Under the pieces are notes generated by a model. The model was not told the DNA's origin and did not search any database. It worked only from the letters and a program-made list of their open reading frames with translations. Shown one piece after another: positions 15,939-60,832 of a stretch of DNA of 64,000 bases. The position numbers were made by a program, and so were the translations under genes. The stretch spans positions 4,576,001 through 4,640,000 of the forward strand of contig OZ244048.1 of assembly GCA_965215265.1 (NCBI GenBank), read 5' to 3'. The DNA is from Candidatus Poribacteria bacterium (GTDB lineage: Bacteria; Poribacteria; WGA-4E; WGA-3G). Positions within the stretch are counted from its first letter, which is position 1; every line of letters begins with the position of its first letter.

Positions 15939-16293
15939 AATTCCTGCTACATAAAACGAAGCGAACAGAGAACACACTAGTGGGCGATGCGAGGGCTCGC
16001 TTGTTGCGGGATTTGCATAAACTCTTATTATTTCAAACGATGGCACTCAAAAAAAGTTTACACGTTTTTTGTATATTTCAGCACATCAACGCCTGATGTT
16101 TTTCTAAAATCTTTACAAATCTCGTATGAGCCTTTCGAGGTTATGAATTCTAAACATAAAATATCTCTGGCGAGATTTGTGCGAGGTTGTTCATTAAATC
16201 CATCGGTGACGGGCTGAAAGATTGGAATCAATGAAAAAAGGCGGCATGCCGGAGCCACGTGCCCTAGTTAGGTGAATTTACATCTCACTGAGT

Positions 16294-16374
16294 TTACTCT
16301 TGTGCCTTAAGCGTCGCCCAGCATTCTGTGAGTTTACCGTCCGCACTCAGATGCCCTTTCAAGCGGGTTGTCTG
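16294..16374 (-). other. In-frame post-stop tail A: QTTRLKGHLSADGKLTECWATLKAQE*
   Basis: Follows the TAG of 16375..17298 in frame; homologous to 60417..60497 and 60752..60832. Confidence 0.8.
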
Positions 16375-17298
16375 CTACGTGTCGGTGTGGTTGTCAGCTG
16401 CCTCCAGCTGCCGCACGAGTTCTGCACGCAGCGCCGGAGATAAATGAAGTCCGGCTAACCGCTCATCGGGAGTGAGTCCTTTGACGCGCTCATCGGCACT
16501 TAGGCGTGCTAACATATCGGTGCGTTCTTGAGGGCTCAAGCGGGACAGCATGTCCGCACGCTCCTCCGATGTCAGTGCAGACAGCAGCTTCGGACCTAAA
16601 GTCGTCGCAACTTCGCGAAGACGACTCTGAAAGAAATCTTGACGGCCTTCCATTTCACAAACCTCCTCCGTGACTTCCGGCTGCAAATACAACGCGGAGT
16701 CAAAATATAACGTATTCTCTTCCGTTATCACCCGCCGCAGGAACGCACGAAACTGTTTCTGCGACGACGCAAACAGCAGCAACCAATAATTCGGCTCAAC
16801 CACCTCCACTTCATTGCAAACCAACAGATGCACCGGCACGCCATCCATCAACCGATAATGCCCTGCCGCCAATGGCTCCCACGGCTCCCCAAAAGGCGGA
16901 CGGGAGAGCAGTGCCCGCGGCTTCCGAGACGACACTATCGTCAAGGTAACCTCCGTGTCTGGCACCTTATGCGCTGCGAGATAACCACGCGCACGCATAC
17001 AAATCCGGTGATACGCCGAGGCATTCAACGGATCGTTCTGCCCTTTGAATTCGAACAGATTATACGTCCGTAAGTAAGAGAGCAGCGGGTGCGCACGCAC
17101 TCTCGTGCGTGCCGCCGCGCTTTCGAGGAGAGCGAGTGCATCTATACGCTGCGGCAACCGGTTGACTTCTATCTCTGTCTGGATAGAGGCACCCAGCCCA
17201 GAGAACAGCAGGGCGAGGAACTCTTTGAAGAAAGGGTCCCAAAACTGCCGTTTGCTTTGTGTTTGTTTGGATGTCTCTGGTGCCGTAGTTTGCCTCAT
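16375..17298 (-). CDS. Rpn-like PD-(D/E)XK nuclease-fold protein, copy A
   Basis: WDPFFK, ExEV..PQRID and LFEFK motifs; C-terminal LSxxERxxxL helical repeats; close paralogue of 59316..60416. Confidence 0.65.
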   Translation of the reverse strand: MRQTTAPETSKQTQSKRQFWDPFFKEFLALLFSGLGASIQTEIEVNRLPQRIDALALLESAAARTRVRAHPLLSYLRTYNLFEFKGQNDPLNASAYHRICMRARGYLAAHKVPDTEVTLTIVSSRKPRALLSRPPFGEPWEPLAAGHYRLMDGVPVHLLVCNEVEVVEPNYWLLLFASSQKQFRAFLRRVITEENTLYFDSALYLQPEVTEEVCEMEGRQDFFQSRLREVATTLGPKLLSALTSEERADMLSRLSPQERTDMLARLSADERVKGLTPDERLAGLHLSPALRAELVRQLEAADNHTDT

Positions 17299-17331
17299 CT
17301 ATCTGCTTAGGTGCTCCACTTCTCATAATAA

Positions 17332-17361
17332 AGTATAGCAGCTTCTCTGTTATTTTGTCAA
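17332..17361 (-). promoter_or_regulatory. Sigma70 promoter of Rpn-like copy A
   Basis: TTGACA-N18-TATACT with extended -10 TG; same boxes and spacing in the two other copies. Confidence 0.75.
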
Positions 17362-17413
17362 GGCAGTCTCCAGATTTCGCTTCTCAAGGCGGCCTCGGTG
17401 CTTCTCTGAAAAC

Positions 17414-17457
17414 AAAAAAAACCAGGGGCAGCCATGTGAGGGTGGCTGCCCCTGGTT
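17414..17457 (-). terminator. Intrinsic terminator after LRR gene A (repeated element, copy 1)
   Basis: AACCAGGGGCAGCCA-loop-TGGCTGCCCCTGGTT followed by a U-run. Confidence 0.85.
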
Positions 17458-17508
17458 TAGGTTAGGTTAACTTAGATTTCACTGAGTTTATTCTTCCGAG
17501 TTAAGTTG

Positions 17509-19153
17509 TTAATTTGCCAGAGGCGAGATATCCGACACTTGCGTATCACTGAGATCCAGCACTCTCAAGTTCGTGAGGTTTGCCAGCGGCGTGACATCCG
17601 ACACTGGCGTACCCCCAAGATCCAACTCTTCCAAGTTGGTGGCGTATTCAAGTCCAGTCAGATTTCTAACGTCTGAGCCACTTAAATCTAGGCTTGTCAA
17701 GCCGAGCATATGTACCGAGGTCACAGCCGTCCCCGCGGAGATGTCGAGTGTCTCCTTGATTGCCGCAAGGAGCGTCTCATCCGGAATATTCACCTCGACG
17801 CTTGTATTTACAGGCACCGTCAGCGTATTCGAGGCACGGCTCAGGTTGCCCACTATGTCCATTGTGGCATCCGCTGGCACCGTTATTTCCACATCTCCGT
17901 CAAAAGCAGACGGCGGCGTGATAGTCGCTCTGTAGACTTTGAAGGCGGAACTATGTTTCACCAACCCCAGATCATCATTCGCCGGCGCAGAACCGGGATC
18001 CCGATGGTCTAAGCCGATTAACATCGGGGCTGAAACCTGCCAATCAGCCGTGGTGGTGCCTAGTGTCACCGCGGTGTCATCTACCTTGAGCGTGATGTCC
18101 GTCGCCTCGAAGCCTCGCGTGGTATCTGCAATCACACCATCAGCGTCATTTCCAATCCCATAATTGTAGAATAGGAATTCCACATCAAAGGACTCTGTCT
18201 GAGTGTCAGGTTCGGTAACAGGCGGATTGGGCTCTGCCGCTTCAAACGGTGCAAAATTCACATAGGCGGTGCGGTAACCCGTCTCAACATCATGAGTATC
18301 ATCCTTGATCAGGCCGTGGATCCTCACGCTCGCCCGGATAGTATCTATGAGATAGTTAAGACCGTCATGATCAGAAGGGGTCGGCAGCGGATGACTCCGG
18401 TCGTAAAAAATCTGCATCTTGTCATAGTAGATCCTCACATTACTCTGGTCAGTTTTCCACTTATCAGTATTGCCGGTGTTCTCGACGGGGTTCTCGACGG
18501 TAGCAGCTTTATCTATGATGAAATTATTTGCATCGTCAGAATAGGGATCCGGAGTGCGATCTATAACAACGCCATCGCCGAAAACGTCATCACCGTCTTG
18601 CACCTCGTATCTGAAATATACGACTTTATTATCGGTTCGCGCACCGGTCCTTACTGAATCATAGACGGCAGCTAGCTCAGTAGTGCCATCGGGGCGGGTG
18701 GTCTCACCGTCCATATCTAGCGCCAGGGCCGGCAGAGCGGACGTTCCATCGTGCTGGACTTTGACATCTATATCAAATGTCAACTTAAAAACGATTTCAT
18801 CTGTACTACCGAAAAATTTAACCGCTAGGCCCGTGGTGGGGTTGGAGTACCCCGGAGCAGTAAGAATGCCCGATGTATGGTTTGCTAGTAGATTCTTCCT
18901 AAAATTTCCACCCCGCTCCCAATCTGCAATTAACCGTGACCTGCTGTCCGCATAGAGCGAATCGCCTGTATGTGGACCTTCACTCTCTATCTCAACCGAC
19001 TCTAACATCGGTTTATCTGCCTGCACGGTAGCCATCGGTGCGGCTAACATCGCAATCCCGGCTATCGAAATTACAGATGAGATAAATCCGCCACTCAACA
19101 CGCAAATAAAACACTTAACATATAGAAGGGGGGGGGTGCATTCTTCTCTTCAT
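17509..19153 (-). CDS. Secreted Ig-like + internalin-type LRR protein A; out of frame at the poly-C tract as sequenced
   Basis: ORF 17509..19101 has an Ig-like segment, a VNIPD cap and LRRs (LTNLxxLDL); the RBS-linked ATG at 19153 joins this frame only if C9 becomes C8. Confidence 0.75.
19128..19136 (-). repeat. C9 homopolymer in the leader-peptide coding region of LRR gene A
   Basis: Nine G on the + strand at 19128-19136. Confidence 0.85.
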
Positions 19154-19644
19154 CTTATCTAACTCCTTGTTATTCTTTATCCCGTGATGGAATAAACTTT
19201 ATAGTCTTCTGACTAAGTTATAGAACCCAAAAAAAAACACTTTAGCTATATTATACCATAAAACAAAACGCGAAAAAAAAGCCGACTTTTTTCTCTTATA
19301 TCTATCATGATACCCGCAATCTGAGAAAATTCAATTCTTTTTTTTCGAATTCCTGAAATTGAGCCTTGTATCTATTTGCAGACGAATTTAGACACAGGGC
19401 TCCAAACGACTTCGTCACACTTATAGAAACGTTATGGGTTGTAAAAGGGTTACAATACAAAAAATGTCAATCCATTTTACGGATGTTGCCTCAAACGGTT
19501 TCGGCAACTCACTTTGTAAAGTTAATTATACCTGCAATCTAAAAGAAATGTCCACTCTTTTGCTCTTATATACTTAAGTATACCACTACCTACACTTGTT
19601 GGGGGATGGAAATATCAACCCGCTTTCCGATCTTTGTTGTGCAC

Positions 19645-20754
19645 TCAGTATGCCGCTTCGTAAAGGCTTACAAAGTCTTGCGTCTCTAGCGGATGTGGGT
19701 TAAATTGTGCGGTCCACTGCGCCGCGGCTTCTGCCGCCAATGGCGGTATTTGGCACGCTGGGATGTTAAAATCTCGCAGTCTCGACGGCAATTCGGCACG
19801 CTGTTTGAATTTGACAATGCACGCTGCTAAATCTCCGTCTGGATATAATTGGCTATACAATTCTCCTACACTCTTGCTATTGTATAGAATAACATGTGGT
19901 AACATCAATCCGACAGCGAGTCCGTGTGTGATACCGTAGTTTGCTGTCAATGGGTTTGCGCAGGCGTGTGCGGCCCCCAGCATCGAATGTTCAATGGCAG
20001 CCCCTGCGAGATAGGCACCGAATAACATGTTGCCGCGTGCCAGGTGCGGTGTTGCTCTAAGGCTCTGCTCAAAATTTGCTGCTAATACCTGCCATGCACG
20101 TTCGCCGAACATCTGTGACATCGGATTGCGTTTTGTAGAAACGAAGCTTTCTATCGCATGCGCAATTGCATCAATCCCGGTAGCAGCTGCAACTGATTTT
20201 GGTAAACTTGCAGTGAGAGTCGGATCGAGAATTACGACGTTGAATATCGCCTTTTTGTCACCACACGCCATCTTGATGTGCGTTTCTGCTTGGGCTATCA
20301 GTGCGAAGGATTGCGCCTCGCTTCCTGTACCCGTCGTCGTCGGAATCCCAATAGACGGGAGCATCGGCTGAGTTGCTCTGTTTACACCCCAGTAGTCCTC
20401 CATCTTTCCCCCATTTGTGAGCAAAAAGTTGACTCCTTTCGCGCAATCCATCGCGCTGCCACCGCCGAGCCCAATAATGAGCTCTATCGGTGCGTTCGTT
20501 CTCGCAAATGCTACTGCAGCTTCAACATGCTGCGTTGTCGGATTCGGTGCAACCTGAGAAAAAACGGAGACACGAACGCTCGCTGTCTCCAACACATCTA
20601 TTGCCCGTGCCGCGATGCCTGCCTGAACGATGCCAGCGTCCGTTACGAGCAGCACCCGCTTGATCCCGAAGTCCTCTGTCAATTCTGGGAGTTTCTCTAA
20701 CGTATTTTCGCCAAAAATCACGCGCTGTGTGAACTCAGAATCAAACGCTTCCAT
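19645..20754 (-). CDS. Iron-containing alcohol dehydrogenase family protein
   Basis: GGGSAMDCAK, PTTTGTGSE, DAIAHAIE and HGLAV motifs. Confidence 0.9.
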   Translation of the reverse strand: MEAFDSEFTQRVIFGENTLEKLPELTEDFGIKRVLLVTDAGIVQAGIAARAIDVLETASVRVSVFSQVAPNPTTQHVEAAVAFARTNAPIELIIGLGGGSAMDCAKGVNFLLTNGGKMEDYWGVNRATQPMLPSIGIPTTTGTGSEAQSFALIAQAETHIKMACGDKKAIFNVVILDPTLTASLPKSVAAATGIDAIAHAIESFVSTKRNPMSQMFGERAWQVLAANFEQSLRATPHLARGNMLFGAYLAGAAIEHSMLGAAHACANPLTANYGITHGLAVGLMLPHVILYNSKSVGELYSQLYPDGDLAACIVKFKQRAELPSRLRDFNIPACQIPPLAAEAAAQWTAQFNPHPLETQDFVSLYEAAY

Positions 20755-20885
20755 CTTACGACCACCGTTTTACAAAACATTCTCCGATTGAGAGAGAGTT
20801 TTTGATTCTTTCATGCTTTTGAAAAAAATCACCGCGACCCCTTCAGAAATAGCCATCAGTTATACAAAAGTTGAGTGCGGTTAAA

Positions 20886-23828
20886 CTAATTACGTGCTTC
20901 AGGTATAACCGTGAACGTCACCCGGTTTCCATCCCGTAACACGATGACCTGAATCGGTTCTCCAATTTTCACTGCATCTAGGGCGTAGGTATAATCGTAG
21001 ATGTTGGCAATCTGTTGCCCACCAAATTCAACGATGATATCTCCGCCTTTTAAGCCTGCTTTATCAGCCGGCCCTCCTGCGCGGACACCTGAGAGTTTGA
21101 CACCTGCAATTTCAGTGGTATAGTCCGGAATCGTACCTAAATAGGCACGCAGCGTATCCCGAGAACCCCCACCACCTTGGCTCCGCTCGACTTCCTGATA
21201 GTCGAGACGTTCCGGTGCAGCCGCCACGTCTAAAATGAGGCCATGTCCCAACTGAACCAGGCGCGCCATGCCCTCATAATTGAGAGTTGCCGGGTCATCG
21301 GTTGGACGGTTGTAATCCTCATGGGCACCCGTGAAGAAATTCAGTACCGGTATCTTCTTTGGATAGAAGGCTGTCACATCCGTCGGTAGGTAAGGATCAG
21401 CTTGTAGCGTCAAGTTAAAACCGACTGGCACATTCCGTTTCTCAATCAGGGCAGGCCAACCCGACGAAGAACCGACACCTTGAAGTATCAACTTATTCTC
21501 GCGTAGTCTGCCTACCATATCAAAATTGATGTAGGCTCCAACTTTCTCTAATGGGATGCCCCCATGTTCAACGAAATAGGAGGAGCCGATCAGCCCCAAT
21601 TCTTCACCTGACCAGAGTGTGAACAGAACGCCTCTTTTAAGCTGATCACGTGATTCATTGAGCAGGGCAGCCAGCTCCAAAACAACAGCAGTACCGGAGG
21701 CGTTATCATCTGCACCGTTGTGAATCTGTCCCTCCTCGCCTTTCCGGGCTAGCGAACCGGTTTCACCGTAGCCGATGTGGTCGTAGTGTGCACCCACAAT
21801 GACGTACTCTGTTTCATCGTTAGCTTCCACTGCCGGAAGCAAGGCGACCACGTTCCTATCCTTTTTCTTTACCTTCTCAATAGAAACCGTGATTTTGACC
21901 TTCACATCTGGAAGCGCAAATTGTCCGACAAAGTGTGGATTTTCCTGATCGAGCTCGGATTGGATCGCTTTTAATTCTTTCCCCGAAGGTGCGAAGAGCT
22001 CTTTTGCTACAGTATTAGTAATCGATGCAGCGACAATCCCTGAATCGGCCAGGCTGCTATCAAACTTCAGGGGAATGAGTTCACCGGCGTTAGGAGAATT
22101 CGGACCAGCAACCACCAGAAACGCCTTTGCGCCATGTTCGCGTGCCTGCATCGCCTTATAACGTAAACCTGCATAACGATTCAGTTGCTGCCGGCGCTCA
22201 GATGAGACATCTTCTGGGACATAACGCAGGGCAACAACTATTTTGTCTTTCACGTCTATGCCAGCATACGCGTCGTATCCTTCGCCTATTTTTCCAGGAA
22301 CCGAGAACCCGTATCCGACAAACACAACCTCACCCTCAACCACACCGTTGCGTGAGAAGGAGAGCGGCACAAAATGTGTTTCTACATCGAATTCTGTCAC
22401 GGTTTCGGCATCTCCGCCACGTTTTGTTATCAAAAACCGGTTTTCATTCGGAATAATCTTCCTGCCGGCAGTGTATTCAAATGTCTGAAAGTAGCTTCCT
22501 GCATCACCGTAAGGTTTCAGGTTAAGCTGCTTGAACTGTGCAGCGATATAATCTGCTGCTTGTTTGGCCCCCTCGGAGCCGGTCATCCTGCCTTCAAGTG
22601 CATCGGAAGCGAGAAATTCGACGTGCTTTTGAATGTTAAGCTTCGCATCTCGTGCGGGCCCTGGTTTACTTAGATCTGCTTTTGGCTTTTGAGTTTCGGG
22701 TGCTGCTGCAAGTGCTGCTAAGGCTGCTTCGTGATTCCACTCAGCGAGATAGAGTTGTGAGATGCCTTGGCTGTTCCGATTGGATGTCCAGCACAACTTG
22801 TTCCCATCAGGCGAGAAAACCGGGAGCCCATCAAAGCCATCTTTATATGTCACGCGAATCGGTTCGTGTCGGCCTGCAGCATCAACGAGGTACAACTCAA
22901 AGTTGGAAAAACCTAATTTATTTGAGGCAAAAATTACGTAATTTCCAGAGGGGTGGAAATAGGGTGCCCAAGACATGCTGTCAAAGTCAGTGAGCCGTCG
23001 CACGCCGGTACCGTCCAGCCGCATCGTGTAGATATCCGCCTCGCTGCCATCCGCTGTGAAATGCCGCCACACGATGTGCTGACCGTCCGGGGTAAAGAAC
23101 GGACCGCCGTCGTAACCCGGCCAATCCGTCAGACGTTGCTGATCCGAACCGTCTGCGTTCATTAGGTAAATCTCCCCGAAATACGCTGGATCTATTTCTA
23201 ACTGTTTCAATTCCTTCGGTGTCAGCTGGCTTTTCGGATAGGCATGACGCAGTGAGCAGAAAACGATACGTTTGCCATCCGGAGAATAGGATGCCTCTGC
23301 ATCGTAGCCTGGTGCAGTTGTCAGCTGCTTGAGGTCGCTGCCATTACGATTTGCAGAGAAGATATCCATCGCTTCATCGTAATCCCAACTGTAACGCCGC
23401 GTTTTCCCAGAGCTCCGGAACGCCAATTCCTCTTCCTGCTTCGCCGTTGCAAATCTATCGTGATGCGTTGAGGCGTAAAGCACCTCCTCACTGCCGGGGC
23501 GAAAGAATGCGCACGTTGTTTTTCCGTATCCAGGTGAGACGCGATGCGTAGCACCGCTCAACAAATCTAACAGATAAATTTGATAGAACGGATTATCCGG
23601 TTCGCGTTCGCTCTGGAAAATCAGCGAATTGCCGTCTTGTGAAAAATAACCCTCGCCGGCACGTTTGCCTGCATAAGTCAACTGCCGGATGTTGCTGAGC
23701 AAGTTTGACTCTTCGGCATGCACGTTCGCATCTTTACTTAGAAATGCTGCAGCACACATCGCACACAAAAAAAATATCCACGTATTTGGGCCGGTCGTCC
23801 GGCCCGTCATTCCGCTCACGAATCGCAT
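20886..23828 (-). CDS. M28 family peptidase with N-terminal TolB-like (PD40) propeller, PA and PDZ domains
   Basis: FSPDG repeats; GAHYDH, NGADDNASG, GEELG and NFDMVGR motifs; C-terminal GGPADKAGL PDZ domain. Confidence 0.9.
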   Translation of the reverse strand: MRFVSGMTGRTTGPNTWIFFLCAMCAAAFLSKDANVHAEESNLLSNIRQLTYAGKRAGEGYFSQDGNSLIFQSEREPDNPFYQIYLLDLLSGATHRVSPGYGKTTCAFFRPGSEEVLYASTHHDRFATAKQEEELAFRSSGKTRRYSWDYDEAMDIFSANRNGSDLKQLTTAPGYDAEASYSPDGKRIVFCSLRHAYPKSQLTPKELKQLEIDPAYFGEIYLMNADGSDQQRLTDWPGYDGGPFFTPDGQHIVWRHFTADGSEADIYTMRLDGTGVRRLTDFDSMSWAPYFHPSGNYVIFASNKLGFSNFELYLVDAAGRHEPIRVTYKDGFDGLPVFSPDGNKLCWTSNRNSQGISQLYLAEWNHEAALAALAAAPETQKPKADLSKPGPARDAKLNIQKHVEFLASDALEGRMTGSEGAKQAADYIAAQFKQLNLKPYGDAGSYFQTFEYTAGRKIIPNENRFLITKRGGDAETVTEFDVETHFVPLSFSRNGVVEGEVVFVGYGFSVPGKIGEGYDAYAGIDVKDKIVVALRYVPEDVSSERRQQLNRYAGLRYKAMQAREHGAKAFLVVAGPNSPNAGELIPLKFDSSLADSGIVAASITNTVAKELFAPSGKELKAIQSELDQENPHFVGQFALPDVKVKITVSIEKVKKKDRNVVALLPAVEANDETEYVIVGAHYDHIGYGETGSLARKGEEGQIHNGADDNASGTAVVLELAALLNESRDQLKRGVLFTLWSGEELGLIGSSYFVEHGGIPLEKVGAYINFDMVGRLRENKLILQGVGSSSGWPALIEKRNVPVGFNLTLQADPYLPTDVTAFYPKKIPVLNFFTGAHEDYNRPTDDPATLNYEGMARLVQLGHGLILDVAAAPERLDYQEVERSQGGGGSRDTLRAYLGTIPDYTTEIAGVKLSGVRAGGPADKAGLKGGDIIVEFGGQQIANIYDYTYALDAVKIGEPIQVIVLRDGNRVTFTVIPEARN

Positions 23829-23856
23829 GTTCTAGCTCCTCTTGTAGTTCTTCATG

Positions 23857-44762: not shown

Positions 44763-44897
44763 AGCGGTGTGACTTGGGGGCTCCCTAAAATTTGCAATGC
44801 CCGCTCTTATCTGTTATATTGGTTATATGCGAACACGCGGTTTAACGCAAGTTCTATGGTCGCGATGTCCGCTCTGTTTAACCAAGATTTTTTTCGA

Positions 44898-45019
44898 AAA
44901 GGAACATAGATGAAGATGAAAATGAGTTTGGGAGCTGCAACGGCTACCCGTTTGATTCAGAAAGGAACACAGATGAAGATGAAAATGAGTTTGGGAGCTG
45001 CAACGGCTACCTGTTTGAT
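44898..45019 (+). repeat. Tandem duplication (period 63 bp) of RBS + start + first codons
   Basis: AAAGGAACA(T/C)AGATGAAGATGAAAATGAGTTTGGGAGCTGCAACGGCTACC occurs twice. Confidence 0.85.
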
Positions 45020-52959: not shown

Positions 52960-52979
52960 AATATCTGAAATTTAATCTA

Positions 52980-54259: not shown

Positions 54260-54991
54260 ATGGGACAATTAGACGGAAAATTTGCAATTGTGACAGGCGG
54301 CAATCGCGGGATTGGGAAAGGAATTGCGAAAGGCTTGGCCGCTGAGGGCGCAAGCCTCACTATCGCCGCGAGAAACGCCGAACTCTTAGAGCAAACCGCC
54401 AGCGAAATCCAAGCCACCGGTGCTTCGGTGCTGACGGTTCCAACCGATGTAACGGATGAACAACAGATTAAAGCACTCTTCGAAAAGGCGATGGCGGAAT
54501 ACGGCCAACTGGACATCCTGGTAAACAACGCAGGCGCTTTTGATGGAGGACCGATCGACGAACTCTCAACCGAGGCGTGGGACCGGGTGATTGGCGTAAA
54601 CCTGCGTGCACCGTTCCTCTGTACACGCGAAGCTGTGCGAATTATGAAAGCACAAGGCCAAGGCGGACGTATCATCAACGTTGGAAGTATTTCCGCACAT
54701 CGCGTCCGGCCCCGGACCGCACCTTACAGTGCCAGTAAATTCGGCATTTGGGGATTAACCCAAGTAACTGCATTGGAAGGAAGGCCGCACGGCATCACCG
54801 CTAGCTGCTTACAGCCTGGGAATACATATGTAGAACGGATTCAGAAGCGCCCGCAGGCCCCCGTCGAAGCGATGATGGATGTAGACGAACTGGCAAAAGC
54901 CGCTGTTCTCATGGCAACATTGCCCCCTAATATTAATATGTTGGAAGCGACAGTCCTTCCGGTAGGACAGCTCTATGTCGGGCGTGGCTAA
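54260..54991 (+). CDS. SDR family oxidoreductase
   Basis: TGGNRGIG, NNAG and YSASK motifs. Confidence 0.88.
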   Translation: MGQLDGKFAIVTGGNRGIGKGIAKGLAAEGASLTIAARNAELLEQTASEIQATGASVLTVPTDVTDEQQIKALFEKAMAEYGQLDILVNNAGAFDGGPIDELSTEAWDRVIGVNLRAPFLCTREAVRIMKAQGQGGRIINVGSISAHRVRPRTAPYSASKFGIWGLTQVTALEGRPHGITASCLQPGNTYVERIQKRPQAPVEAMMDVDELAKAAVLMATLPPNINMLEATVLPVGQLYVGRG

Positions 54992-55246
54992 GGCTGCAGT
55001 CTAAAAAAAACAGTGGGTTTTGTAGATTCATGGCCACTTAGATTCGTCTATTTCGGAGAACAATAGCCTGGAACCTTTGGCATCACTTGTAGATGAAAAA
55101 GCAGCTTTCTTCAGGCCTCCAATTAGGTCCGATGCCTTACTATTTCAATAAAATGATGCCCAATTTCGGCATTCATGATTTCATTGAGAATTGGAATCAG
55201 TAGGACGTTACAAAAACGACAAGGTATATTGAAATCTTTGTCCGCT

Positions 55247-56041
55247 TTACAGAGGCAAACCTAACATACCGCTGAGATAGAAATAAGCCTCCTCAGTATA
55301 CCGGGGGAGGTTCTCGGGGTCCGCCACTTCTAATTCAACTGTCAGGTCGCCTTGGTAATTTACTTCTTGCAGCGTGGCGATAATTTCCTGTAACGCAAGG
55401 TCGCCGCGTCCAATCCCGACTGAGACAGCACCGAGGTGATCTTTGAGATGGACAGCATAGATGCGTGAAGCAAATTGGCGAATCGCAGCAAATATGTCTA
55501 CACCCGATGTATGGAAATGGCCGGTATCAATACATATCCCGACCCGCTCATCAGGAACAGCATCCAATATGCGTTGGAAATCCTCAGGTTGTTGCAGAAC
55601 ATTGCCGTGGTGTGGCTCAAGTGTCAGTTTAATAGTGCTTTCTGACGGTATGCGTGCTAATACCTGTTTTAGACAGTCTAGGACCCTGTCTAACGCACCC
55701 GGTTCCGTCCTGCGTTGTGCGCCGCTTGTTGTGAGGTGCGTCGCGTTCAACGCCTCAGCGATATCCACACATTTTGCTATCGCTTCTGCACGTGCTTGTA
55801 CATCGGCAGCATTGTGTCCACCCCAGCCCGGCGGATAGAGTCCGGCACATTTCATGCCCGATTCATCAATTTTTGACTTCATGCTGGCCGGCTCAAATTC
55901 GTGCACAGCGTCAACGCTCCATATTAAGGGACCGTGGATTTCCATGAACCGGTAACCGGTTGTAGGGGCGTATTCCAAAGTTGCAGCGACTTCATCTTCA
56001 GCATAGCCTCGGTAGCAGATAGAGGCACAGATAATGTCCAT
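55247..56041 (-). CDS. Sugar phosphate isomerase/epimerase (AP endonuclease 2 TIM barrel)
   Basis: LEPHH, IDTGH, VHLKD and VELE motifs; AAGGA RBS upstream of 56041. Confidence 0.82.
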   Translation of the reverse strand: MDIICASICYRGYAEDEVAATLEYAPTTGYRFMEIHGPLIWSVDAVHEFEPASMKSKIDESGMKCAGLYPPGWGGHNAADVQARAEAIAKCVDIAEALNATHLTTSGAQRRTEPGALDRVLDCLKQVLARIPSESTIKLTLEPHHGNVLQQPEDFQRILDAVPDERVGICIDTGHFHTSGVDIFAAIRQFASRIYAVHLKDHLGAVSVGIGRGDLALQEIIATLQEVNYQGDLTVELEVADPENLPRYTEEAYFYLSGMLGLPL

Positions 56042-56278
56042 AAAAAAATGTTCCTTTTGACCGAACTTGTAGCAGAAATCTACGAAGCCCGACATGAATA
56101 GGAATTTACTTACCCTTTTTGAAGGTGAGCAATAGTTTATTCTTAACACGACTCTAGGTGGGAATATTGTAAACTTCCCGCAATTAGATGGTAGCATATT
56201 CTTCAAAATTTATCCATTGAAATCAGCACATCAACAAGCATCACCATTGAGAAAAATAACGCTTGGAGCAAAATAGCG

Positions 56279-56689
56279 ATGATTCAGCACATTGAGATAA
56301 CTTTACCTGAGTACCCGCGTGGTTTTCATCTCATCACAGACGACATTCTAAAATCCATAGATGAGATACCAGAGTCCGGCATCCTACATCTGTTTATTAA
56401 GCATACCTCAGCAGGATTGACTATCAATGAAAACGCAGATCCGACTGTCCGAACGGATTTTGCACGCAGCTTCGATCAGCTCGTTAGAGAGCACGAACCT
56501 TTCTATCAGCACACATTAGAGGGCGCTGACGATATGCCTGCACATATCAAAGCGGCGCTCGTTGGCTTTTCCGTATCCATTCCAATTGTGAACCATCAGC
56601 TAAATTTAGGGGTGTGGCAGGGCATTTATCTGTGCGAATTCCGGAATCGAGGGGGAAAGCGAAATTTAACGGCGACGCTCTATGCCTAG
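56279..56689 (+). CDS. yjbQ: YjbQ (UPF0047) family protein
   Basis: HTSAGLTINENADP, DMPAHIK and LGVWQGIYLCEFR motifs. Confidence 0.9.
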   Translation: MIQHIEITLPEYPRGFHLITDDILKSIDEIPESGILHLFIKHTSAGLTINENADPTVRTDFARSFDQLVREHEPFYQHTLEGADDMPAHIKAALVGFSVSIPIVNHQLNLGVWQGIYLCEFRNRGGKRNLTATLYA

Positions 56690-56762
56690 CCAAAATGATA
56701 GCCAGCTCCTAATCTAGACTGTCTTTTAGGTTAGGTTACTCGCATCCGTTTGTGCTACGCAT

Positions 56763-57331
56763 TCAATTGGCTCCGTCACTTTCCCAATCCATCTGATACT
56801 TGATGTCGTAGTTGATGATGAAATCTAATTCCTCATCCGTGAAGCCTTAGTGCCGCGCAAGGACGCGGCAGATCTTGTCGATGATGGATTTGGACACCCG
56901 GTGGTTTTGTAGGTTGTCTCCTTGCGTTGTGCGTGGTGCTTTAAATCCTGTATCAAATCAGCGGAGAGTGCAGAGAGATTCTGATTTATGGATTTTTCCA
57001 TTTGCGCAACGCCGATACGGAAATTTCGAATTTCATGTAAGTTTAAAGCACGGCAATCGGAGAGAATAACATACCACTAGTAAGATAATGAACTGTTCAT
57101 TGTCGCTACAACAACAACTGCATCTAGGGCTGTTGTTAAATATAGGGGTTTGAGATCTGTTGAGATCTTCTCTCCGTCTCGTTGGTTCCAAAAGTAAAGA
57201 ATAAAGTCCATTGCCCGAATCCAATAGCAAGGTGAGTTCTGGAAATAGATTGTGTAGGGGGCCCGTCTCGTGGTGAGAGGCCCCTCTAAGCCTGAGAATT
57301 GAGTCAGCTTTTTCCATATCCTATATTCCAC
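56763..57331 (-). pseudogene. 3' fragment of a type IIG (Eco57I-like) restriction-modification gene
   Basis: ...MNSSLSY*WYVILSDCRALN...KTTG, then a frameshift, then SKSIIDKICRVLARH*GFTDEELDFIINYDIKYQM; two in-frame stops and one frameshift. Confidence 0.7.
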
Positions 57332-57342
57332 ATCTTTTTAAT

Positions 57343-57371
57343 TTGACAAACACTTCTTCTTGAGGTATAAT
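57343..57371 (+). promoter_or_regulatory. Perfect-consensus sigma70 promoter upstream of LRR gene B
   Basis: TTGACA-N17-TATAAT. Confidence 0.8.
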
Positions 57372-57643
57372 TAAAATCAAATAACCCTTTGCAGGGTTAG
57401 AAGAGAGCAAAAGTGTTCTTTAAAAGTGAAAGAATGAGTTGACGTGTCCGTTGGCAGTTTGTGAATGCACTGCATTTTTTGGAAAGGGATTCACAAACAC
57501 GATTTCATTTTTTGAACACCTGTGTGCCCGTCTTACGAATTGGCAAAAAAGGTTGAAAACGTAGTCTGTTAGGAAACTTAGTCCGAACTATAAAATCAAG
57601 TTTATTCCGTCACGGGATAAAGAATAACAAGGAGTTAGATAAG

Positions 57644-58956
57644 ATGAAGAGAAGAATGTATCCCCCCCTCTATATGTTAAGTGTTTTAGTTCTATTATTA
57701 ATCGCTGGGCTTGTTATGCCGTTTACAAACACCCCTTAACCTGTTCCATTCTATTTTGCATCACGCTTTCGTTACTCATTGCCCCCCTGGCAGTGAGCCA
57801 AAGTCCAGTAGTGAACATTCCGGATGCGACGCTCCGTGCGGAAATCCAGAAGAGCCTCAAACCCGCGGGGGGGGCTATCACCCAGGCAGATATGCTCCGC
57901 TTGACACGCCTCGATTTGAGAAACCTCAATTCAGATGAACGATCAAACGTTAGCAATCTGACAGGACTTGAATTCGCAACCAACTTGGAAGAGCTGGCTC
58001 TCAATGATACGCAAGTGTCGGATATCTCGCCGCTGGCAAACCTCACCAACTTGAGATGGCTGCATCTCAAGCGTACGCAAGTGTCGGATATCTCGCCGCT
58101 GGCAAACCTCACCAACTTGAGATGGCTGCATCTCGAGGATGCGCAAGTGTCGGATATCTCGCCGCTGGCAAACCTCACCAACTTGGAAACGCTGTATCTC
58201 TCGGGAACGCTGTCGGATATCTCGCTGCTGTCAACCTTCACCAACTTGGAACATCTGTCTCTCGGGGATACGCAAGTGTCGGATATCTCGCCGCTGTCAA
58301 GCCTCACCAACTTGGATTGGCTGGATCTCGGTGGTACGCAAGTGTCGGATATCTCACCGCTGTCAAACCTCACCAATTTGGAAACGCTGTATCTCAGGGG
58401 TACGCAAGTGTCGGATATCTCGCCTCTGGCAGGCCTCACCAACTTGAGAAGGCTGGATATCACTAATACGCCAGTGTCGGATATCTCGGCACTGTCAAGC
58501 CTCACCAACTTGACAGTGATAGGTTTTGCGGGTTCGGTGGTGAACATTGCGGATGAGACGGTCCGTGCGAAAATAGAGGAGACACTCAACATCTCCGCGG
58601 GGACGGCTGTGACCTCGGCAGATATGCTCCGCTTGACAAGCCTCGATTTAGGTGGCTCAGACGTTAGCGATCTGACTTTCCTTCAATCTGCAACCAACTT
58701 GGAAACGCTGAATCTTGCGGGTGCGGTGGTAGAAAATATCTCGCCTCTGTCAGAGCTCACTCGTTTGGAAACGCTAGATCTCTCGGGTACGCAAGTGTCG
58801 GATATCTCGCCGCTGTCAAGCCTCACCAACTTGGAAGAGCTGGATCTCGGTGGTACGCAAGTGTCGGATATCTCTCCACTGTCAGAACTCACCAACTTGA
58901 AAAAGTTGGATCTCAGTGATACGGAAGTGTCGGATATCTCAGCCCTGTCAAAGTAA
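57644..58956 (+). CDS. Secreted internalin-type LRR protein B; out of frame at the poly-C tract as sequenced
   Basis: ORF 57793..58956 has two VNIxD caps and 22-aa LRRs; the reading frame stays open back to the C7 tract; the RBS-linked ATG 57644 joins it if C7 becomes C8. Confidence 0.78.
57662..57668 (+). repeat. C7 homopolymer in the leader-peptide coding region of LRR gene B
   Basis: atgtaT-CCCCCCC-tctatatg. Confidence 0.8.
57980..58953 (+). repeat. 66-bp coding tandem repeats (LRR units) in two blocks
   Basis: Recurrent CAAGTGTCGGATATCTCGCCGCTG...CTCACCAACTTG scaffold. Confidence 0.9.
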
Positions 58957-59151
58957 CATGGAGGTAAAGTCGTGTTGGAATCAGGCGTTTCGGACACCGG
59001 TCGCACCTCTGGCCACTTCACTTCCCTGATGCACGCGTCATCAACCTGCGGCGCGAGAGTGCTTATCGCGATAAACTGGATCTGGAACGGCGTTCGCCAG
59101 TGCAAGCCATCACCGCAGTGAGCTCTAAGTTAAACTAAACTAAACTAAACT

Positions 59152-59195
59152 AACCAGGGGCAGCCACCCTCACATGGCTGCCCCCGGTTTTTTTT
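59152..59195 (+). terminator. Intrinsic terminator (repeated element, copy 2), preceded by (TAAAC)n
   Basis: CCAGGGGCAGCCA-loop-TGGCTGCCCCCGG followed by T8. Confidence 0.85.
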
Positions 59196-59252
59196 GTTTT
59201 GGATAGAGAGAAGCGTCGAGGCCGCCTTGAGAAGCGACATCTGGAGACTGCC

Positions 59253-59282
59253 TTGACAAAAAAGGAGAAAGGCTGCTATACT
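59253..59282 (+). promoter_or_regulatory. Sigma70 promoter of Rpn-like copy B
   Basis: TTGACA-N18-TATACT with extended -10 TG. Confidence 0.75.
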
Positions 59283-59315
59283 TTATTATGAGAAGTGGAG
59301 CGTCTAAGCAGATAG

Positions 59316-60416
59316 ATGAGGCAAACTACCGCACCAGAGACATCTAAAGAAACACAAAGCAAACGTAAACTCTGGGACCCTTTCTTCAAAGAGTTCCTCG
59401 CCCGGCTGTTCTCTGGGCTGGGTGCCTCTATCCAGACAGAGATAGAAGTCAACCGGTTGCCGCAGCGTATAGATGCACTCGCTCTCCTCGAAAGTGCCGC
59501 AGCCCGGGCGAGAGTGCGTGCGAATCCGCTGCTCTCTTACTTACGCACGTATAATCTGTTCGAGTTCAAAGGGCAGAACGATCCGTTGAATGAATCGGCG
59601 TATCACCGGATTTGTATGCGTGCGCGTGGTTATCTCGCAGATAAGCAGGTGCCTGCAACCGAGTTAACCCTCACAATAGTGTCGTCTCGGAAGCCGCGGG
59701 CGCTGCTGACACATCCGCCTTTCGGGTTGCCGTGGCAGCAGCTCGCCCCGGGACATTATACCCAGGCAGGTCTGCCGGTGCATCTGTTGGTTTGCAATGA
59801 AGTGGCACTGGTTGAGCCGAATTATTGGTTGCTGCTGTTTGCGTCGTCGCAGAAACAGTTTCGTGCGTTCCTGCGGCGGGTGATAACAGAAGAGAATACG
59901 TTATATTTTGACTCCGCGTTGTATTTGCAGCCGGAAGTCACGGAGGAGGTTTGTGAAATGGAAGGACATCAAGATTTCTTTCAGAGTCGTCTTCGCGAAG
60001 TTGCGACGACTTTAGGTCCGAAGCTGCTGTCGGCGCTGACTACGTCGGATAGATTGGCTCTGTTGAATGCGATGCCCGCGGCAGAACGGGCCGATATATT
60101 GGCGAGTTTACCCGCCGCAGAACGGGCTGATATGTTGGCGAGTTTACCCGCCGCAGAACGGGCTGATATGTTGGCGAGTTTACCCGCCGCAGAACGGGCC
60201 GATATGTTGGCGAGTTTACCCGCCGCAGAACGGGCGGATATGTTGGCGAGTCTACCCGCCGCAGAACGGGCGGATATGTTAGCACGCCTGAGTCCCGATG
60301 AGCGCGTCAAAGGACTCACTCCCGATGAGCGGTTAGCCGGACTTCATTTATCTCCGGCGGTGCGTGCAGAACTCGTGCGGCAGCTGGAGACAGCTGACAA
60401 TGACACCGACATGTAG
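59316..60416 (+). CDS. Rpn-like PD-(D/E)XK nuclease-fold protein, copy B
   Basis: Same motifs as copy A; expanded 12-aa C-terminal repeats. Confidence 0.65.
   Translation: MRQTTAPETSKETQSKRKLWDPFFKEFLARLFSGLGASIQTEIEVNRLPQRIDALALLESAAARARVRANPLLSYLRTYNLFEFKGQNDPLNESAYHRICMRARGYLADKQVPATELTLTIVSSRKPRALLTHPPFGLPWQQLAPGHYTQAGLPVHLLVCNEVALVEPNYWLLLFASSQKQFRAFLRRVITEENTLYFDSALYLQPEVTEEVCEMEGHQDFFQSRLREVATTLGPKLLSALTTSDRLALLNAMPAAERADILASLPAAERADMLASLPAAERADMLASLPAAERADMLASLPAAERADMLASLPAAERADMLARLSPDERVKGLTPDERLAGLHLSPAVRAELVRQLETADNDTDM
60075..60290 (+). repeat. Six 36-bp coding tandem repeats (PAAERADMLASL)
   Basis: CCCGCCGCAGAACGGGCxGATATGTTGGCGAGTTTA units, contiguous and in frame. Confidence 0.92.
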
Positions 60417-60497
60417 CAGACAACCCGCTTGAAAGGGCATCTGAGTGCAGACGGTAAACTCACAGAACGCTGGGCAACGCTCAAATCGGAAGAATAA
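60417..60497 (+). other. In-frame post-stop tail B: QTTRLKGHLSADGKLTERWATLKSEE*
   Basis: Follows the TAG at 60414-60416 in frame. Confidence 0.8.
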
Positions 60498-60531
60498 ACT
60501 CAGTGAGATTTAAACTAAATTAAACTAACCT

Positions 60532-60574
60532 AACCAGGGGCAGCCACGCTCACATGGCTGCCCCTGGTTTTTTT
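60532..60574 (+). terminator. Intrinsic terminator (repeated element, copy 3)
   Basis: CCAGGGGCAGCCA-loop-TGGCTGCCCCTGG followed by T7. Confidence 0.85.
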
Positions 60575-60672
60575 GCTTTGGATAGATGGTTCTGCTTTTG
60601 TGCCGGAAAATCCGATGCCCTGGTGCGAGTCAAAACACGCTCCGTTTTCGCACCGGGGCTCCAAAAAAAGGG

Positions 60673-60832
60673 TTGACAACATAAAAGCGAGGCTGCTATA
60701 CTAGAAATAAAGAGAGTGCTGGTGGCAGCTGACAACCACACCGACATGTAGCAGACGACGCGGTTGAGAGGACATCTGAGTGCGGATGGAAAACTCACCG
60801 AACGGTGGACAACACTCAAGGCGCAAGAGTAA
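60673..60832 (+). other. Third, 'empty' unit: promoter + last codons of the Rpn-like gene + TAG + tail C
   Basis: TTGACA-N18-TATACT at 60673-60702; ...AADNHTDM* ends at 60751; QTTRLRGHLSADGKLTERWTTLKAQE* at 60752-60832. Confidence 0.75.

What the first reader, a model, noticed from the sequence alone, without database searches (positions are those of the whole stretch)
16270..60832. Repeated module coupling a secreted LRR gene to an Rpn-like nuclease gene and an orphaned sorting-motif tail
Seen: the same gene order occurs at about 16270-19220 (minus) and 57575-60575 (plus). The order is: shared leader with RBS and MKRRM start; LRR gene; TAA-rich pentamers; near-identical terminator; TTGACA-N18-TATACT promoter; near-identical Rpn-like gene; TAG; 26-codon tail. 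The LRR gene bodies differ (Ig-like region plus few LRRs versus LRR only) while the frame around them is conserved. Known: Rpn/YhgA-type PD-(D/E)XK proteins are described as recombination-promoting nucleases and as anti-phage toxins, and sponge symbionts are rich in LRR proteins. Inference: this is a cassette-like system in which a variable secreted LRR cargo travels with a nuclease or toxin-antitoxin gene that stabilises, mobilises or reshuffles it. I know of no description of this arrangement.
Basis: partly seen in the sequence, partly recalled or inferred. Interest (0 to 1): 0.88.

Follow-up and report, generated by a model that had tools for sequence, protein, structure and literature searches.

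The report
Phase-variable LRR genes paired with nuclease
This bacterial genome carries about fifteen copies of a two-gene unit: a gene for a secreted leucine-rich-repeat protein, whose start codon is followed by a slippery run of C's that probably switches it on or off, and a neighbouring nuclease gene built like known toxin-antitoxin defence genes.

Summary
The window's two modules belong to 15 leader-bearing LRR loci and 17 near-identical nuclease genes in a 4.83 Mb single-contig genome. Ten of the 15 leaders are directly followed by a full nuclease gene.

In 14 of 15 leaders the MKRRM start is followed at once by a C7-C9 run. The ATG is in frame with the LRR ORF in 6 copies and out of frame in 8, including both window copies. 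The genome holds 100 C/G runs of 8 or more, far above expectation. Nine of 10 other tract-linked ORFs tested are DNA methyltransferase or restriction-modification genes. That is the signature of slipped-strand phase variation. Population-level switching could not be tested, because only contigs were available.

The "Rpn-like" gene is a PD-(D/E)XK nuclease with D53/E83/K85. It is not a PF04754 member. It does mimic Rpn architecture: a helical C-terminal domain with 12-aa repeats (17 copies, 17 different lengths) and a conserved internal SD+ATG.

I found no transposon ends. Three of 40 relatives have the gene, mainly as a single copy; the two examined lie away from LRR genes. Shared tail/terminator/promoter repeats can explain the linkage by recombination. 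This is a new variant of known kinds.

The parts
57343..57371 (+). Consensus sigma-70-type promoter (TTGACA-17-TATAAT) about 270 nt upstream of the copy-2 leader ATG. It lies inside the stretch shared by about 12 genomic copies.
   Evidence: 12 of 12 matches; repeat coverage begins near 57300
57575..57700 (+). Copy-2 leader: conserved 5'UTR, AAGGAG at 57629-57634, ATG at 57644-57646 (MKRRM).
   Evidence: (15 genomic copies at 75-100%)
57662..57668 (+). C7 homopolymer directly after MKRRMY. The ATG frame ends at TAA 57737-57739 (31 aa). The LRR frame is the +2 frame, so this copy is OFF.
57646..58956 (+). Open frame of the class III (LRR-only) cargo gene, 436 codons. The ORF listing places the first start at GTG 57793. 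A G8 run lies inside it at 57867-57874.
   Evidence: (LRR_4 E=1.3e-72)
59130..59199 (+). (TAAAC)n pentamers, which give TAA in all three frames, followed by an intrinsic terminator (stem 59152-59189).
   Evidence: (D5)
59253..59282 (+). Promoter of the nuclease gene (TTGACA-18-TATACT, with TG).
59316..60416 (+). RLN copy 2, 366 aa. RLN is my label for the Rpn-like nuclease. It has a PD-(D/E)XK N-domain with D53, E83 and K85, and a helical C-domain.
59942..59960 (+). Internal GGAGGAGG (59942-59949) plus ATG 59958-59960 (Met215). This is a candidate internal start for a 152-aa C-terminal protein.
   Evidence: present in 17 of 17 close copies and in the G004 and G038 orthologues
60039..60319 (+). 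36-nt tandem repeats encoding ERADMLASLPAA. Copy number differs between all paralogues.
   Evidence: (D2)
60417..60497 (+). 26-codon tail after TAG (QTTRLKGHLSADGKLTERWATLKSEE). It carries the C-terminal motif KLTxxWAxLK.
60510..60579 (+). Second pentamer-plus-terminator unit, 91% alike to 59130-59199.
   Evidence: (D5)
60673..60832 (+). Second copy of the nuclease promoter (60673-60702), followed by a remnant of the nuclease 3' end plus tail (60718-60832). This looks like a decayed tandem cassette.
   Evidence: (D3)
19090..19225 (-). Copy-1 leader, ATG at 19153-19151.
19128..19136 (-). C9 homopolymer (G9 on the + strand). The ATG frame gives MKRRMHPPPSIC and stops at 19117-19115. The cargo frame is +1, so this copy is OFF.
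17509..19149 (-). Open frame of the class I cargo gene, 546 codons: an N-terminal body of unknown family plus C-terminal LRRs.
17419..17458 (-). Intrinsic terminator after the copy-1 cargo gene.
   Evidence: (I19)
17332..17361 (-). Promoter of the nuclease gene, copy 1 (TTGACA-18-TATACT, with TG).
16375..17298 (-). RLN copy 1, 307 aa, with the fewest repeats.
16294..16374 (-). 26-codon tail after TAG, copy 1.
   Evidence: (I12)

Best explanation
The window holds two members of a species-specific multigene family of secreted, internalin-like LRR proteins. There are 15 leader-bearing loci and about 19 family genes.

Poly-C switch. Expression is probably switched on and off by slipped-strand length changes in a C7-C9 run placed right after the shared MKRRM start codon. 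Both window copies are in the OFF frame.

Nuclease gene. Each LRR gene is usually followed, behind its own terminator and under its own promoter, by a gene I call RLN. RLN is a PD-(D/E)XK nuclease of an uncharacterised family. Its architecture parallels Rpn toxins with intragenic antitoxins: a nuclease N-domain, then a helical C-domain with a hypervariable repeat number and a conserved internal ribosome-binding site plus ATG.

Linkage. It most likely arose because the unit [LRR gene - tail/terminator - promoter - RLN - tail/terminator] is what gets duplicated. The near-identical leader, tail, terminator and promoter segments then let homologous recombination reassort LRR bodies and add or delete RLN cassettes.

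Shown: the anatomy, copy numbers, frame states, nuclease fold and catalytic triad, repeat variation, purifying selection, and restriction to this lineage.

Inferred: real switching in cells, toxin-antitoxin or defence activity of RLN, and recombination as the cause of the linkage.
For: Poly-C switch:
- All 14 tract-bearing leaders have ATG AAG AGA AGA AT[GT] followed by C7-C9. Six are in frame with ORFs of 522-626 aa and 8 are out of frame. A 15th locus has no tract and is in frame.
- C/G run counts are about 1500-1600 at length 5, about 250 at length 6 and 30-36 at length 7. They then stay at 44 for length 8 and 46 for length 9, giving 100 runs of 8 or more.
- Runs of C/G of 8 or more show a two-frame break in 31 cases against 9 intact. 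The figures are 0 against 40 for C/G of exactly 7, and 10 against 107 for A/T of 8 or more. This argues against general homopolymer miscalling.
- Nine of 10 ORFs from 10 other tract families are N6_N4_Mtase, Eco57I or Methylase_S.

Cargo:
- Six of 6 representatives scanned carry LRR_4.
- In-frame N-termini read as signal peptides, for example MKRRMHPPLYILSILVLLFIAVLCMPSHVQA (judged by eye).

RLN:
- K85 is invariant, and D53 and E83 are at least 90% conserved in 60 homologues.
- The AF2 model has pLDDT 93.9. The top Foldseek hits are PD-(D/E)XK nucleases: AF1548, NucS, the R2 endonuclease and Hjc, with probability 0.84-1.0 and E 0.01-0.1.
- All 17 close copies are intact with the triad kept, and median dN/dS is 0.27.
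- The 17 copies have 17 different lengths (307-453 aa) because the number of 12-aa repeats varies.
- GGAGG plus ATG at Met215/216 is present in 17 of 17 close copies and in 2 of 2 distant orthologues.
- Rpn proteins have separately translated, repeat-variable C-domains that act as antitoxins (PMC10400941, passages read).

Linkage:
- Ten of 15 leaders are followed directly by RLN.
- The tail-plus-terminator unit is duplicated on both sides of RLN.
- The RLN tree conflicts with cargo class: the copy beside a class III gene at 1073 kb pairs with the copy beside a class I gene at 1370 kb, at 96% identity and support 0.995.
Against: - No read-level evidence shows that any tract varies within a population. 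The only runs available were assembled contigs, and these break at the module. The 8 OFF states could therefore be assembly errors at C8-C9.
- MutS1 and MutL are present, so no repair defect boosts slippage.
- RLN matches no Pfam, NCBIfam or PADLOC model. hhalign against the genome's own 24 PF04754 genes gives probability 0.2.
- The RLN C-domain model (pLDDT 84.9) finds no RpnS structure. Its best PDB match has E 0.7.
- No homologue was found on plasmids or phages.
- The internal SD could simply reflect Glu-Val codons.
- A heptamer, GTTAAGT, follows 55 of 100 tracts. A plain slippage model does not explain it.
Confidence: 0.55

Rival explanations
1. RLN is an active recombinase or mobilising nuclease that moves or reshuffles the LRR cargo, so the module is a true mobile cassette system.
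For: - The linkage is tight. Fifteen of 17 close RLN copies sit behind an LRR-family gene or in tandem behind such a copy.
- The RLN tree is incongruent with cargo class.
- The copy-2 module sits at a synteny break. Orthologues of its two flanking genes lie far apart by coordinate in G001 and G004. In G002 they lie near opposite ends of a contig, so their separation is unclear.
- E. coli Rpn proteins were reported to contribute to RecA-independent transfer (PMC5350276; title and start of abstract seen).
Against: - No terminal inverted repeats or target duplications were found, and repeat coverage fades unevenly at both borders.
- RLN has its own promoter and terminator.
- Three leader loci lack RLN, and 2 RLN copies lack an LRR neighbour.
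- In G004 and G038 the orthologue is single-copy among housekeeping genes.
- rpn genes are reported not to behave as insertion sequences (PMC10400941, section 5 passage).
- Flanking direct repeats of tail plus terminator suffice for RecA-type exchange.
Confidence: 0.2
2. This is an ordinary paralogous gene family with no switching. The frame differences are homopolymer-length errors of the assembly, and all LRR genes are really in frame.
For: - Eight of 14 tracts would need only a one-base correction.
- Long C/G runs are error-prone in long-read assemblies (general knowledge).
- No reads were available to check this.
Against: - The errors would have to go both ways: five tracts too long and three too short.
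- A/T runs of 8 or more inside long ORFs are intact in 107 cases against 10, and C/G runs of 7 in 40 against 0.
- The excess of runs of length 8-9 and their concentration in methyltransferase genes and this LRR family are real whatever their exact lengths.
- The tract persists in 14 paralogues whose bodies are only 32-78% identical.
Confidence: 0.2
3. The poly-C run is a site of programmed transcriptional slippage or ribosomal frameshifting. Every copy then gives some full-length protein constitutively, rather than switching heritably.
For: - The cargo frame is open from immediately after the ATG in all OFF copies.
- Polymerase slippage on long homopolymers is known (recalled, not from a call).
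Against: - In-frame and out-of-frame copies coexist with both +1 and -1 offsets, which a single programmed shift does not predict.
- Slippage is best documented on A/T runs (recalled).
- The same tracts occur in both orientations relative to genes and in mid-gene positions.
Confidence: 0.1

Closest known systems
5' homopolymeric-tract switching of Listeria monocytogenes inlA (Orsi et al. 2010, PMC2831843; abstract read)
   Same: An LRR surface-protein gene carries a homopolymer a few codons after the start. A length change truncates the product to a few residues: 8 aa in inlA, and 12 or 31 aa here.
   Different: - Here the run is poly-C of 7-9, not poly-A.
- It sits in a conserved leader shared by 14 paralogues.
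- The proteins are not members of the Listeria internalin families. NCBIfam scores are 35-266 bits against cut-offs of 1050-1600.
Rpn (YhgA-like, PF04754) toxic nucleases with intragenic antitoxin RpnS (PMC10400941, passages read; PMC5350276, listing only)
   Same: - PD-(D/E)XK N-domain with a helical C-domain.
- Repeat number in the C-domain varies between copies.
- A candidate internal start is present.
- Gene arrays occur, and there are no transposon ends.
- One of 60 homologues carries DUF4351.
   Different: - There is no PF04754 match, although that model finds 24 other genes in the same genome.
- hhalign gives probability 0.2.
- The repeats are 12 aa long, not 4 aa.
- The C-domain model finds no RpnS structure.
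- No activity has been tested.
Phase-variable DNA methyltransferases, or phasevarions (PMC5909438, PMC7383803; titles and starts of abstracts seen)
   Same: Simple repeats in methyltransferase genes of restriction-modification systems. Nine of 10 non-LRR tract-linked ORFs tested here are such genes.
   Different: They are described in host-adapted pathogens. Here they share a tract type, and an adjacent GTTAAGT heptamer, with an LRR family.
Multigene surface-protein families with a repeat switch in a conserved leader, such as Neisseria opa and Mycoplasma vlp/vsp (recalled from memory, no call)
   Same: Many paralogues each carry an independent repeat in or near the signal-peptide region. Flanks are conserved and bodies are variable.
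   Different: Here the switch is a homopolymer rather than a pentamer or a promoter poly-A, and each gene is paired with a nuclease gene.
Eukaryote-like repeat proteins of sponge symbionts (PMC3909097; title and start of abstract seen)
   Same: An expanded repertoire of repeat proteins, including LRR.
   Different: My two searches found no paper linking such proteins or sponge symbionts to phase variation. The organism's identity was not established here. One RLN homologue is labelled Candidatus Poribacteria in its source.

Membership tests
Rpn / YhgA-like (Pfam PF04754 Transposase_31) | Significant match to the family HMM | tested here: not met
   No Pfam hit for the N-domain even at E up to 10 and none for the full proteins. 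The same model finds 24 other genes in this genome at 80-101 bits. A profile of 60 RLN homologues does not find those genes (best E 9.8), and hhalign gives probability 0.2.
Rpn / YhgA-like (Pfam PF04754 Transposase_31) | PD-(D/E)XK nuclease core with catalytic D...E.K | tested here: met
   K85 is invariant, and D53 and E83 are at least 90% conserved. The model has pLDDT 93.9. The top fold matches are PD-(D/E)XK nucleases. The triad is kept in 17 of 17 copies.
Rpn / YhgA-like (Pfam PF04754 Transposase_31) | C-terminal small domain (RpnS/DUF4351) translated from an internal start, with variable repeat number | tested here: inconclusive
   Variable 12-aa repeats are present, giving 17 lengths in 17 copies. 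SD+ATG is conserved. However, DUF4351 occurs in only 1 of 60 homologues, no RpnS-like fold match was found, and translation was not tested.
Rpn / YhgA-like (Pfam PF04754 Transposase_31) | Toxicity or DNA damage blocked by the small protein; phage defence | not testable with these tools
   No experiment was possible. PADLOC gave no hit.
Simple-sequence-repeat phase-variable (contingency) loci | Long homopolymer within or next to the 5' coding region, whose length sets the reading frame | tested here: met
   A C7-C9 run begins 17-18 nt after the ATG in 14 loci, with 6 in frame and 8 out of frame.
Simple-sequence-repeat phase-variable (contingency) loci | Tracts over-represented in the genome and concentrated in surface and restriction-modification genes | tested here: met
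   The genome holds 100 C/G runs of 8 or more, against a decay that predicts a handful. Nine of 10 other tract-linked ORFs are methyltransferase or restriction-modification genes.
Simple-sequence-repeat phase-variable (contingency) loci | Tract length varies within a population or between isolates at one locus | not testable with these tools
   Only assembled contigs of public runs were available, and they break at the repeat. A metagenome pattern scan gave 5 unrelated hits.
Internalin-like secreted LRR proteins | LRR domain plus N-terminal signal peptide | tested here: met
   LRR_4 is present in both window genes and in 6 of 6 other representatives. Signal-peptide-like N-termini appear in the in-frame copies (judged by eye, no predictor run). 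The proteins score far below the cut-offs of the named Listeria internalin models, so they are not members of those families.
Insertion sequence / transposon | Defined ends (terminal inverted repeats), target-site duplication, and a transposase of a known family | tested here: not met
   No terminal inverted repeats border the module. Repeat coverage fades unevenly at the borders. No transposase family was hit.

The most novel reading that the evidence does not exclude
A host-associated environmental bacterium, possibly a poribacterial sponge symbiont, runs a contingency-locus repertoire of about 100 poly-C/G switches. These switches independently toggle about 14 secreted LRR host-interaction proteins and more than 10 families of DNA methyltransferases. 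They carry a lineage-conserved recognition element (C8-11 ... GTTAAGT), which is found in 13 of 24 genomes of the family and in none of 16 genomes from sister families. The genome's roughly 50 Rpn-type PD-(D/E)XK nucleases (26 RLN and 24 PF04754) act at or near these elements. They could drive tract-length change or cassette exchange, or act as addiction modules that keep each switchable gene from being lost.
Probability: 0.12. Interest if true: 0.9.

Novelty: new variant of a known kind. Interest (0 to 1): 0.64.

Why it matters
LRR and other eukaryote-like repeat proteins are the leading candidates for how sponge and other animal symbionts handle host recognition, yet how they are regulated is unknown.

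A family of 14 LRR genes, each with its own mutational on/off switch, would give a population of symbionts a combinatorial surface repertoire. That strategy is so far known mainly from pathogens. The prediction can be tested directly by counting tract lengths in reads.

The work also defines a new PD-(D/E)XK family that has converged on, or diverged beyond recognition from, the Rpn toxin and intragenic-antitoxin design. It further exposes a conserved heptamer beside poly-C tracts that current models of phase variation do not explain.

Tried and rejected
- Reads. The look-up of sequencing runs listed 17 runs, all kept as contigs, and no RNA holder was listed. I laid four of them. Long contigs cover the unique flanks (to about 57017 and from about 60690) but break inside the module. 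Every contig over 57661 carries the base of other paralogues. No tract-length information could be drawn from this, and a 'goes back 1420' joint is explained by the two promoter copies and by paralogous tandem arrays.
- Leader DNA in relatives. It was found in 0 of 40 genomes.
- Empty site. Orthologues of the two genes flanking copy 2 exist in G001, G002 and G004. None shows them side by side, so no empty site could be defined.
- Metagenome pattern scan for the leader. It gave 5 chance hits without a poly-C run.
- The search for related loci in genome contigs. It gave one remote hit at 27% identity, which I did not use.
- Other negative searches. Rfam found nothing in the window. PADLOC, NCBIfam and a PDB sequence search gave nothing for the nuclease domain. 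There were no plasmid or phage homologues.
- C-domain fold search. No significant match was found.
- Rejected: the 150-nt repeat at 16050-16200 as a module end. It has about 98 degenerate copies with no tie to RLN.
- Rejected: a mismatch-repair defect as the cause of the tracts. MutS1 and MutL are present.
- Considered for the GTTAAGT heptamer, none convincing: a promoter hexamer, a quick stop codon for the OFF frame, a conserved N-terminal peptide, and a transposon end. The heptamer occurs in both orientations relative to genes and in different reading frames.
Supplementary files of papers were not consulted. Dataset S1 and the SI figures of PMC10400941 may bear on how far RpnS/DUF4351 variants reach.

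Full report
**1. Observation**

The window is bases 4,576,001-4,640,000 of a single-contig genome of 4,833,177 bases.

A repeat search confirms an inverted pair of modules:
- 16268-17421 against 59193-60523, in three arms at 88-96% identity.
- The leaders 19122-19202 against 57595-57675, at 91%.
- Two terminator units inside copy 2, 59130-59199 and 60510-60579, at 91%.

The two LRR genes have different bodies: 17509-19101(-) has an unknown N-terminal body plus two to three LRRs, and 57793-58956(+) is all LRR, with LRR_4 at E=1.3e-72. The two near-identical genes are 307 and 366 aa long.

Other features are also confirmed. The TTGACA-18-TATACT promoters and the terminators match consensus scans. 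TAG is followed by an open 26-codon tail in both copies.

**2. Scale**

blastn and a six-frame protein search of the whole genome give the following:
- 15 leader copies.
- 17 close copies of the second gene, at 79-100% aa identity.
- 9 distant paralogues, at 40-53%.

Ten leaders are followed directly by a full copy, one by a 159-nt remnant, and one by another LRR gene and then a copy. Three have only the terminator.

All 15 leader loci encode paralogous LRR proteins. They fall into three body classes: class I includes window copy 1, class II has no window copy, and class III (LRR-only) includes window copy 2. Six of 6 representatives scanned carry LRR_4, and one also has Lamin Tail Domains.

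Four further family genes lack the leader or carry a variant of it. Of the 17 close copies of the second gene, 15 lie behind an LRR-family gene or in tandem behind such a copy. The copies at 3038267 and 1734121 do not.

**3. The missed feature: a poly-C run after the start codon**

Aligning the leaders shows AAGGAG, then N9, then ATG AAG AGA AGA AT[GT], then two bases, then C7-C9, in 14 of 15 loci.

Translating from the ATG gives:
- Six loci in frame with ORFs of 522-626 aa.
- Eight loci out of frame, of which five need -1 and three need +1.

Both window copies are out of frame. Copy 1 (C9) gives MKRRMHPPPSIC-stop. Copy 2 (C7) gives a 31-aa peptide. In every OFF copy the cargo frame is open from just after the ATG.

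The in-frame forms read as Sec signal peptides, with basic MKRRM, a hydrophobic core and an A-x-A-like end. I judged this by eye; no predictor was run.

The shared leader nucleotides are read in different frames in different classes (LYILSILV against LLYVKCF). The conservation is therefore at DNA level.

One locus has an interrupted tract (C8-A-CC-T-CC) and one has none. Both are in frame.

**4. Genome-wide context of the tracts**

C/G runs fall from about 1,550 at length 5 to about 250 at length 6 and 30-36 at length 7. Counts then stay at 44 for length 8 and 46 for length 9, with 10 longer. That makes 100 runs of 8 or more.

Many of these lie at the 5' ends or in the middle of ORFs of multi-copy families, in either orientation. 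I tested ten tract-linked ORFs from ten different tract families. Nine are DNA methyltransferase or restriction-modification components: six N6_N4_Mtase, two Eco57I and one Methylase_S.

A crude test for two long frames abutting at a run gives:

| Run type | Broken | Intact |
|---|---|---|
| C/G, 8 or more | 31 | 9 |
| C/G, exactly 7 | 0 | 40 |
| A/T, 8 or more | 10 | 107 |

General homopolymer miscalling therefore does not explain the pattern. An error mode specific to long C/G runs cannot be excluded without reads. MutS1 and MutL are present.

This combination is the classical signature of slipped-strand contingency loci: long G/C runs, surface-protein and methyltransferase genes, and a mix of ON and OFF states. 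The closest single analogue is the 5' poly(A) tract of Listeria inlA, itself an LRR protein (PMC2831843, abstract).

I could not show switching. The only public runs holding this DNA are kept as contigs, and these break at the module.

**5. An unexplained heptamer**

In 55 of 100 tracts, GTTAA[GC] lies within 30 nt on the 3' side of the C-run.

The pattern C8-N(4-16)-GTTAAGT behaves as follows:
- It matches 66 times in this genome, with overlapping matches counted.
- It occurs in 13 of 24 other genomes of the same family.
- It occurs in 0 of 16 genomes from three sister families.
- The reversed control pattern matches nowhere in the 41 genomes.

The heptamer occurs in several reading frames and in both orientations relative to genes. 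It is therefore a DNA-level element. In the leader it supplies the TAA that ends the 12-aa OFF peptide. I have no tested explanation for it.

**6. The second gene (RLN)**

Sequence searches:
- No Pfam, NCBIfam or PADLOC model matches the N-domain. Only the C-terminal repeats touch MgtE_N.
- A full HMMER scan of 1.84 billion representatives finds just 243 relatives at E up to 0.001.

Nuclease domain:
- In an alignment of 60 relatives, K85 is invariant, and D53 and E83 are nearly so.
- The AF2 model has pLDDT 93.9. Its best PDB matches are PD-(D/E)XK nucleases: AF1548, NucS, the R2 endonuclease domain, Hjc and restriction enzymes, at E 0.01-0.1 and probability up to 1.0.

Relation to Rpn:
- The genome separately holds 24 bona fide PF04754 Rpn genes.
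- The RLN profile does not find them, and hhalign gives probability 0.2.
- RLN is therefore a PD-(D/E)XK nuclease but not a demonstrable Rpn member.

Even so, RLN copies the Rpn design described by Zhong et al. (PMC10400941, passages):
- All 17 close copies are intact, keep the triad and show median dN/dS of 0.27.
- Their lengths are all different (307-453 aa), because the number of ERADMLASLPAA repeats and of a second short repeat varies. The genome's own PF04754 genes vary in GIEQ/GIER/GREE four-residue repeats in the same way.
- A GGAGG lies 8-9 nt before a conserved Met215/216 at the domain boundary in 17 of 17 copies. AAGGAGGT lies before the matching Met in the G004 and G038 orthologues.
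- One of 60 homologues carries DUF4351.

Against this, the C-domain model (pLDDT 84.9) finds no RpnS-like structure.

**7. Why the two genes travel together**

RLN has its own promoter and is separated from the LRR gene by a strong terminator. It is therefore not co-transcribed with the LRR gene by design.

The 26-codon tail is the true C-terminus of four large LRR plus Lamin-tail proteins. Its motif KL[TASV]x(x)W[GA]x[LIVM]K ends 64 of the genome's 8,544 ORFs and never occurs internally. Forty-nine of those 64 have a signal-like N-terminus.

The tail follows the RLN stop (always TAG) in 10 of 20 occurrences. It starts at exactly the base where it starts in the large proteins.

The unit [promoter-RLN] is therefore bracketed by direct repeats of [tail]-pentamers-terminator and by repeated promoter copies. 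That arrangement allows gain, loss and tandem amplification by homologous recombination. Tandem arrays and a decayed second cassette at 60673-60832 are indeed present.

The (TAAAC)n pentamers give TAA in all three frames. This suits a family whose frames shift.

The RLN tree is partly incongruent with cargo class, which is consistent with exchange. I found no inverted ends or target duplications, and coverage by other copies fades unevenly at both borders.

**8. Distribution**

- The leader is absent from 40 relatives at DNA level.
- RLN homologues occur in 3 of 40 relatives, at 39% identity and mainly as a single copy. There is none in the one genome of the same genus.
- In G004 and G038 the homologue sits among housekeeping genes, with no LRR gene within about 5 kb.
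- No plasmid or phage homologue was found.
- One homologue is labelled as a hypothetical protein of Candidatus Poribacteria by its source. The window organism itself was not identified.

The pairing is therefore a lineage-specific expansion, not a conserved system.

**9. Verdict**

Its mechanistic core, that the nuclease moves or reshuffles the cargo, is unsupported.

The best reading is a phase-variable LRR family co-amplified with an Rpn-analogous nuclease gene through shared flanking repeats. I put my confidence at about 0.55, limited mainly by the lack of read-level tract data.

Two literature searches found no paper that links sponge symbionts or Poribacteria with phase variation. Those searches cover only the held library.

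Noticed in passing
Genome-wide; in the window at 19105-19136 (-) and 57662-57689 (+): A conserved element, C8-11 followed 4-16 nt later by GTTAAGT, often preceded by TTTA. It accompanies 55 of 100 long C/G runs. It occurs in 13 of 24 other genomes of the same family, in none of 16 genomes from sister families, and never for the reversed control. Its function is unknown.
   Followed up: partly
Genome (outside the window), e.g. G000:C1:3023059-3024651, 225160-226614, 2240491-2243211: At least nine families of DNA methyltransferase or restriction-modification genes carry C/G runs of 8 or more at their 5' end or mid-gene, and many are out of frame. They are candidate phasevarions.
   Followed up: partly
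Genome, 24 loci, e.g. G000:C1:70807-71952, 3218098-3221736 (three in tandem): There are 24 bona fide PF04754 Rpn genes whose lengths differ through the number of four-residue GIEQ/GIER/GREE repeats. Thirteen of the 24 have a long C/G run 1.3-6.6 kb upstream on the same strand. Some follow genes for secreted proteins.
   Followed up: partly
window 16050-16200: A degenerate dispersed repeat of about 150 nt, with about 98 copies at 70-93% identity. It shows no special link to the modules.
   Followed up: yes
window 61097-61963 (+) and 63 other ORFs in the genome: An extreme C-terminal motif KL[TA]TTWGxLK ends 64 ORFs, most of which have signal-like N-termini. It is probably a sorting signal of unknown pathway. 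Relatives hold 35-52 matches each to the window's LamG-like protein 61097-61963, which carries the motif.
   Followed up: partly
window 57867-57874: A G8 run lies inside the copy-2 LRR ORF and is currently in frame. The paralogous segment at 58595-58649 has the run interrupted (D7, 17).
   Followed up: no
window 16268-19225 and 57575-60832: The two modules are in inverted orientation about 38 kb apart, with arms up to 567 nt at 88-96% identity. They could mediate inversion of the segment between them. This was not tested.
   Followed up: no
window 44888-45013: Two tandem 63-nt copies at 90% identity, each containing AGGAAC..ATGAAGATGAAAATG (D6). I did not examine them.
   Followed up: no
window 14715-16046 (-): An ECF-type sigma factor-like ORF (229 aa) and a putative anti-sigma ORF (209 aa) lie directly beside copy 1. 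The annotation is by eye, with no family search.
   Followed up: no
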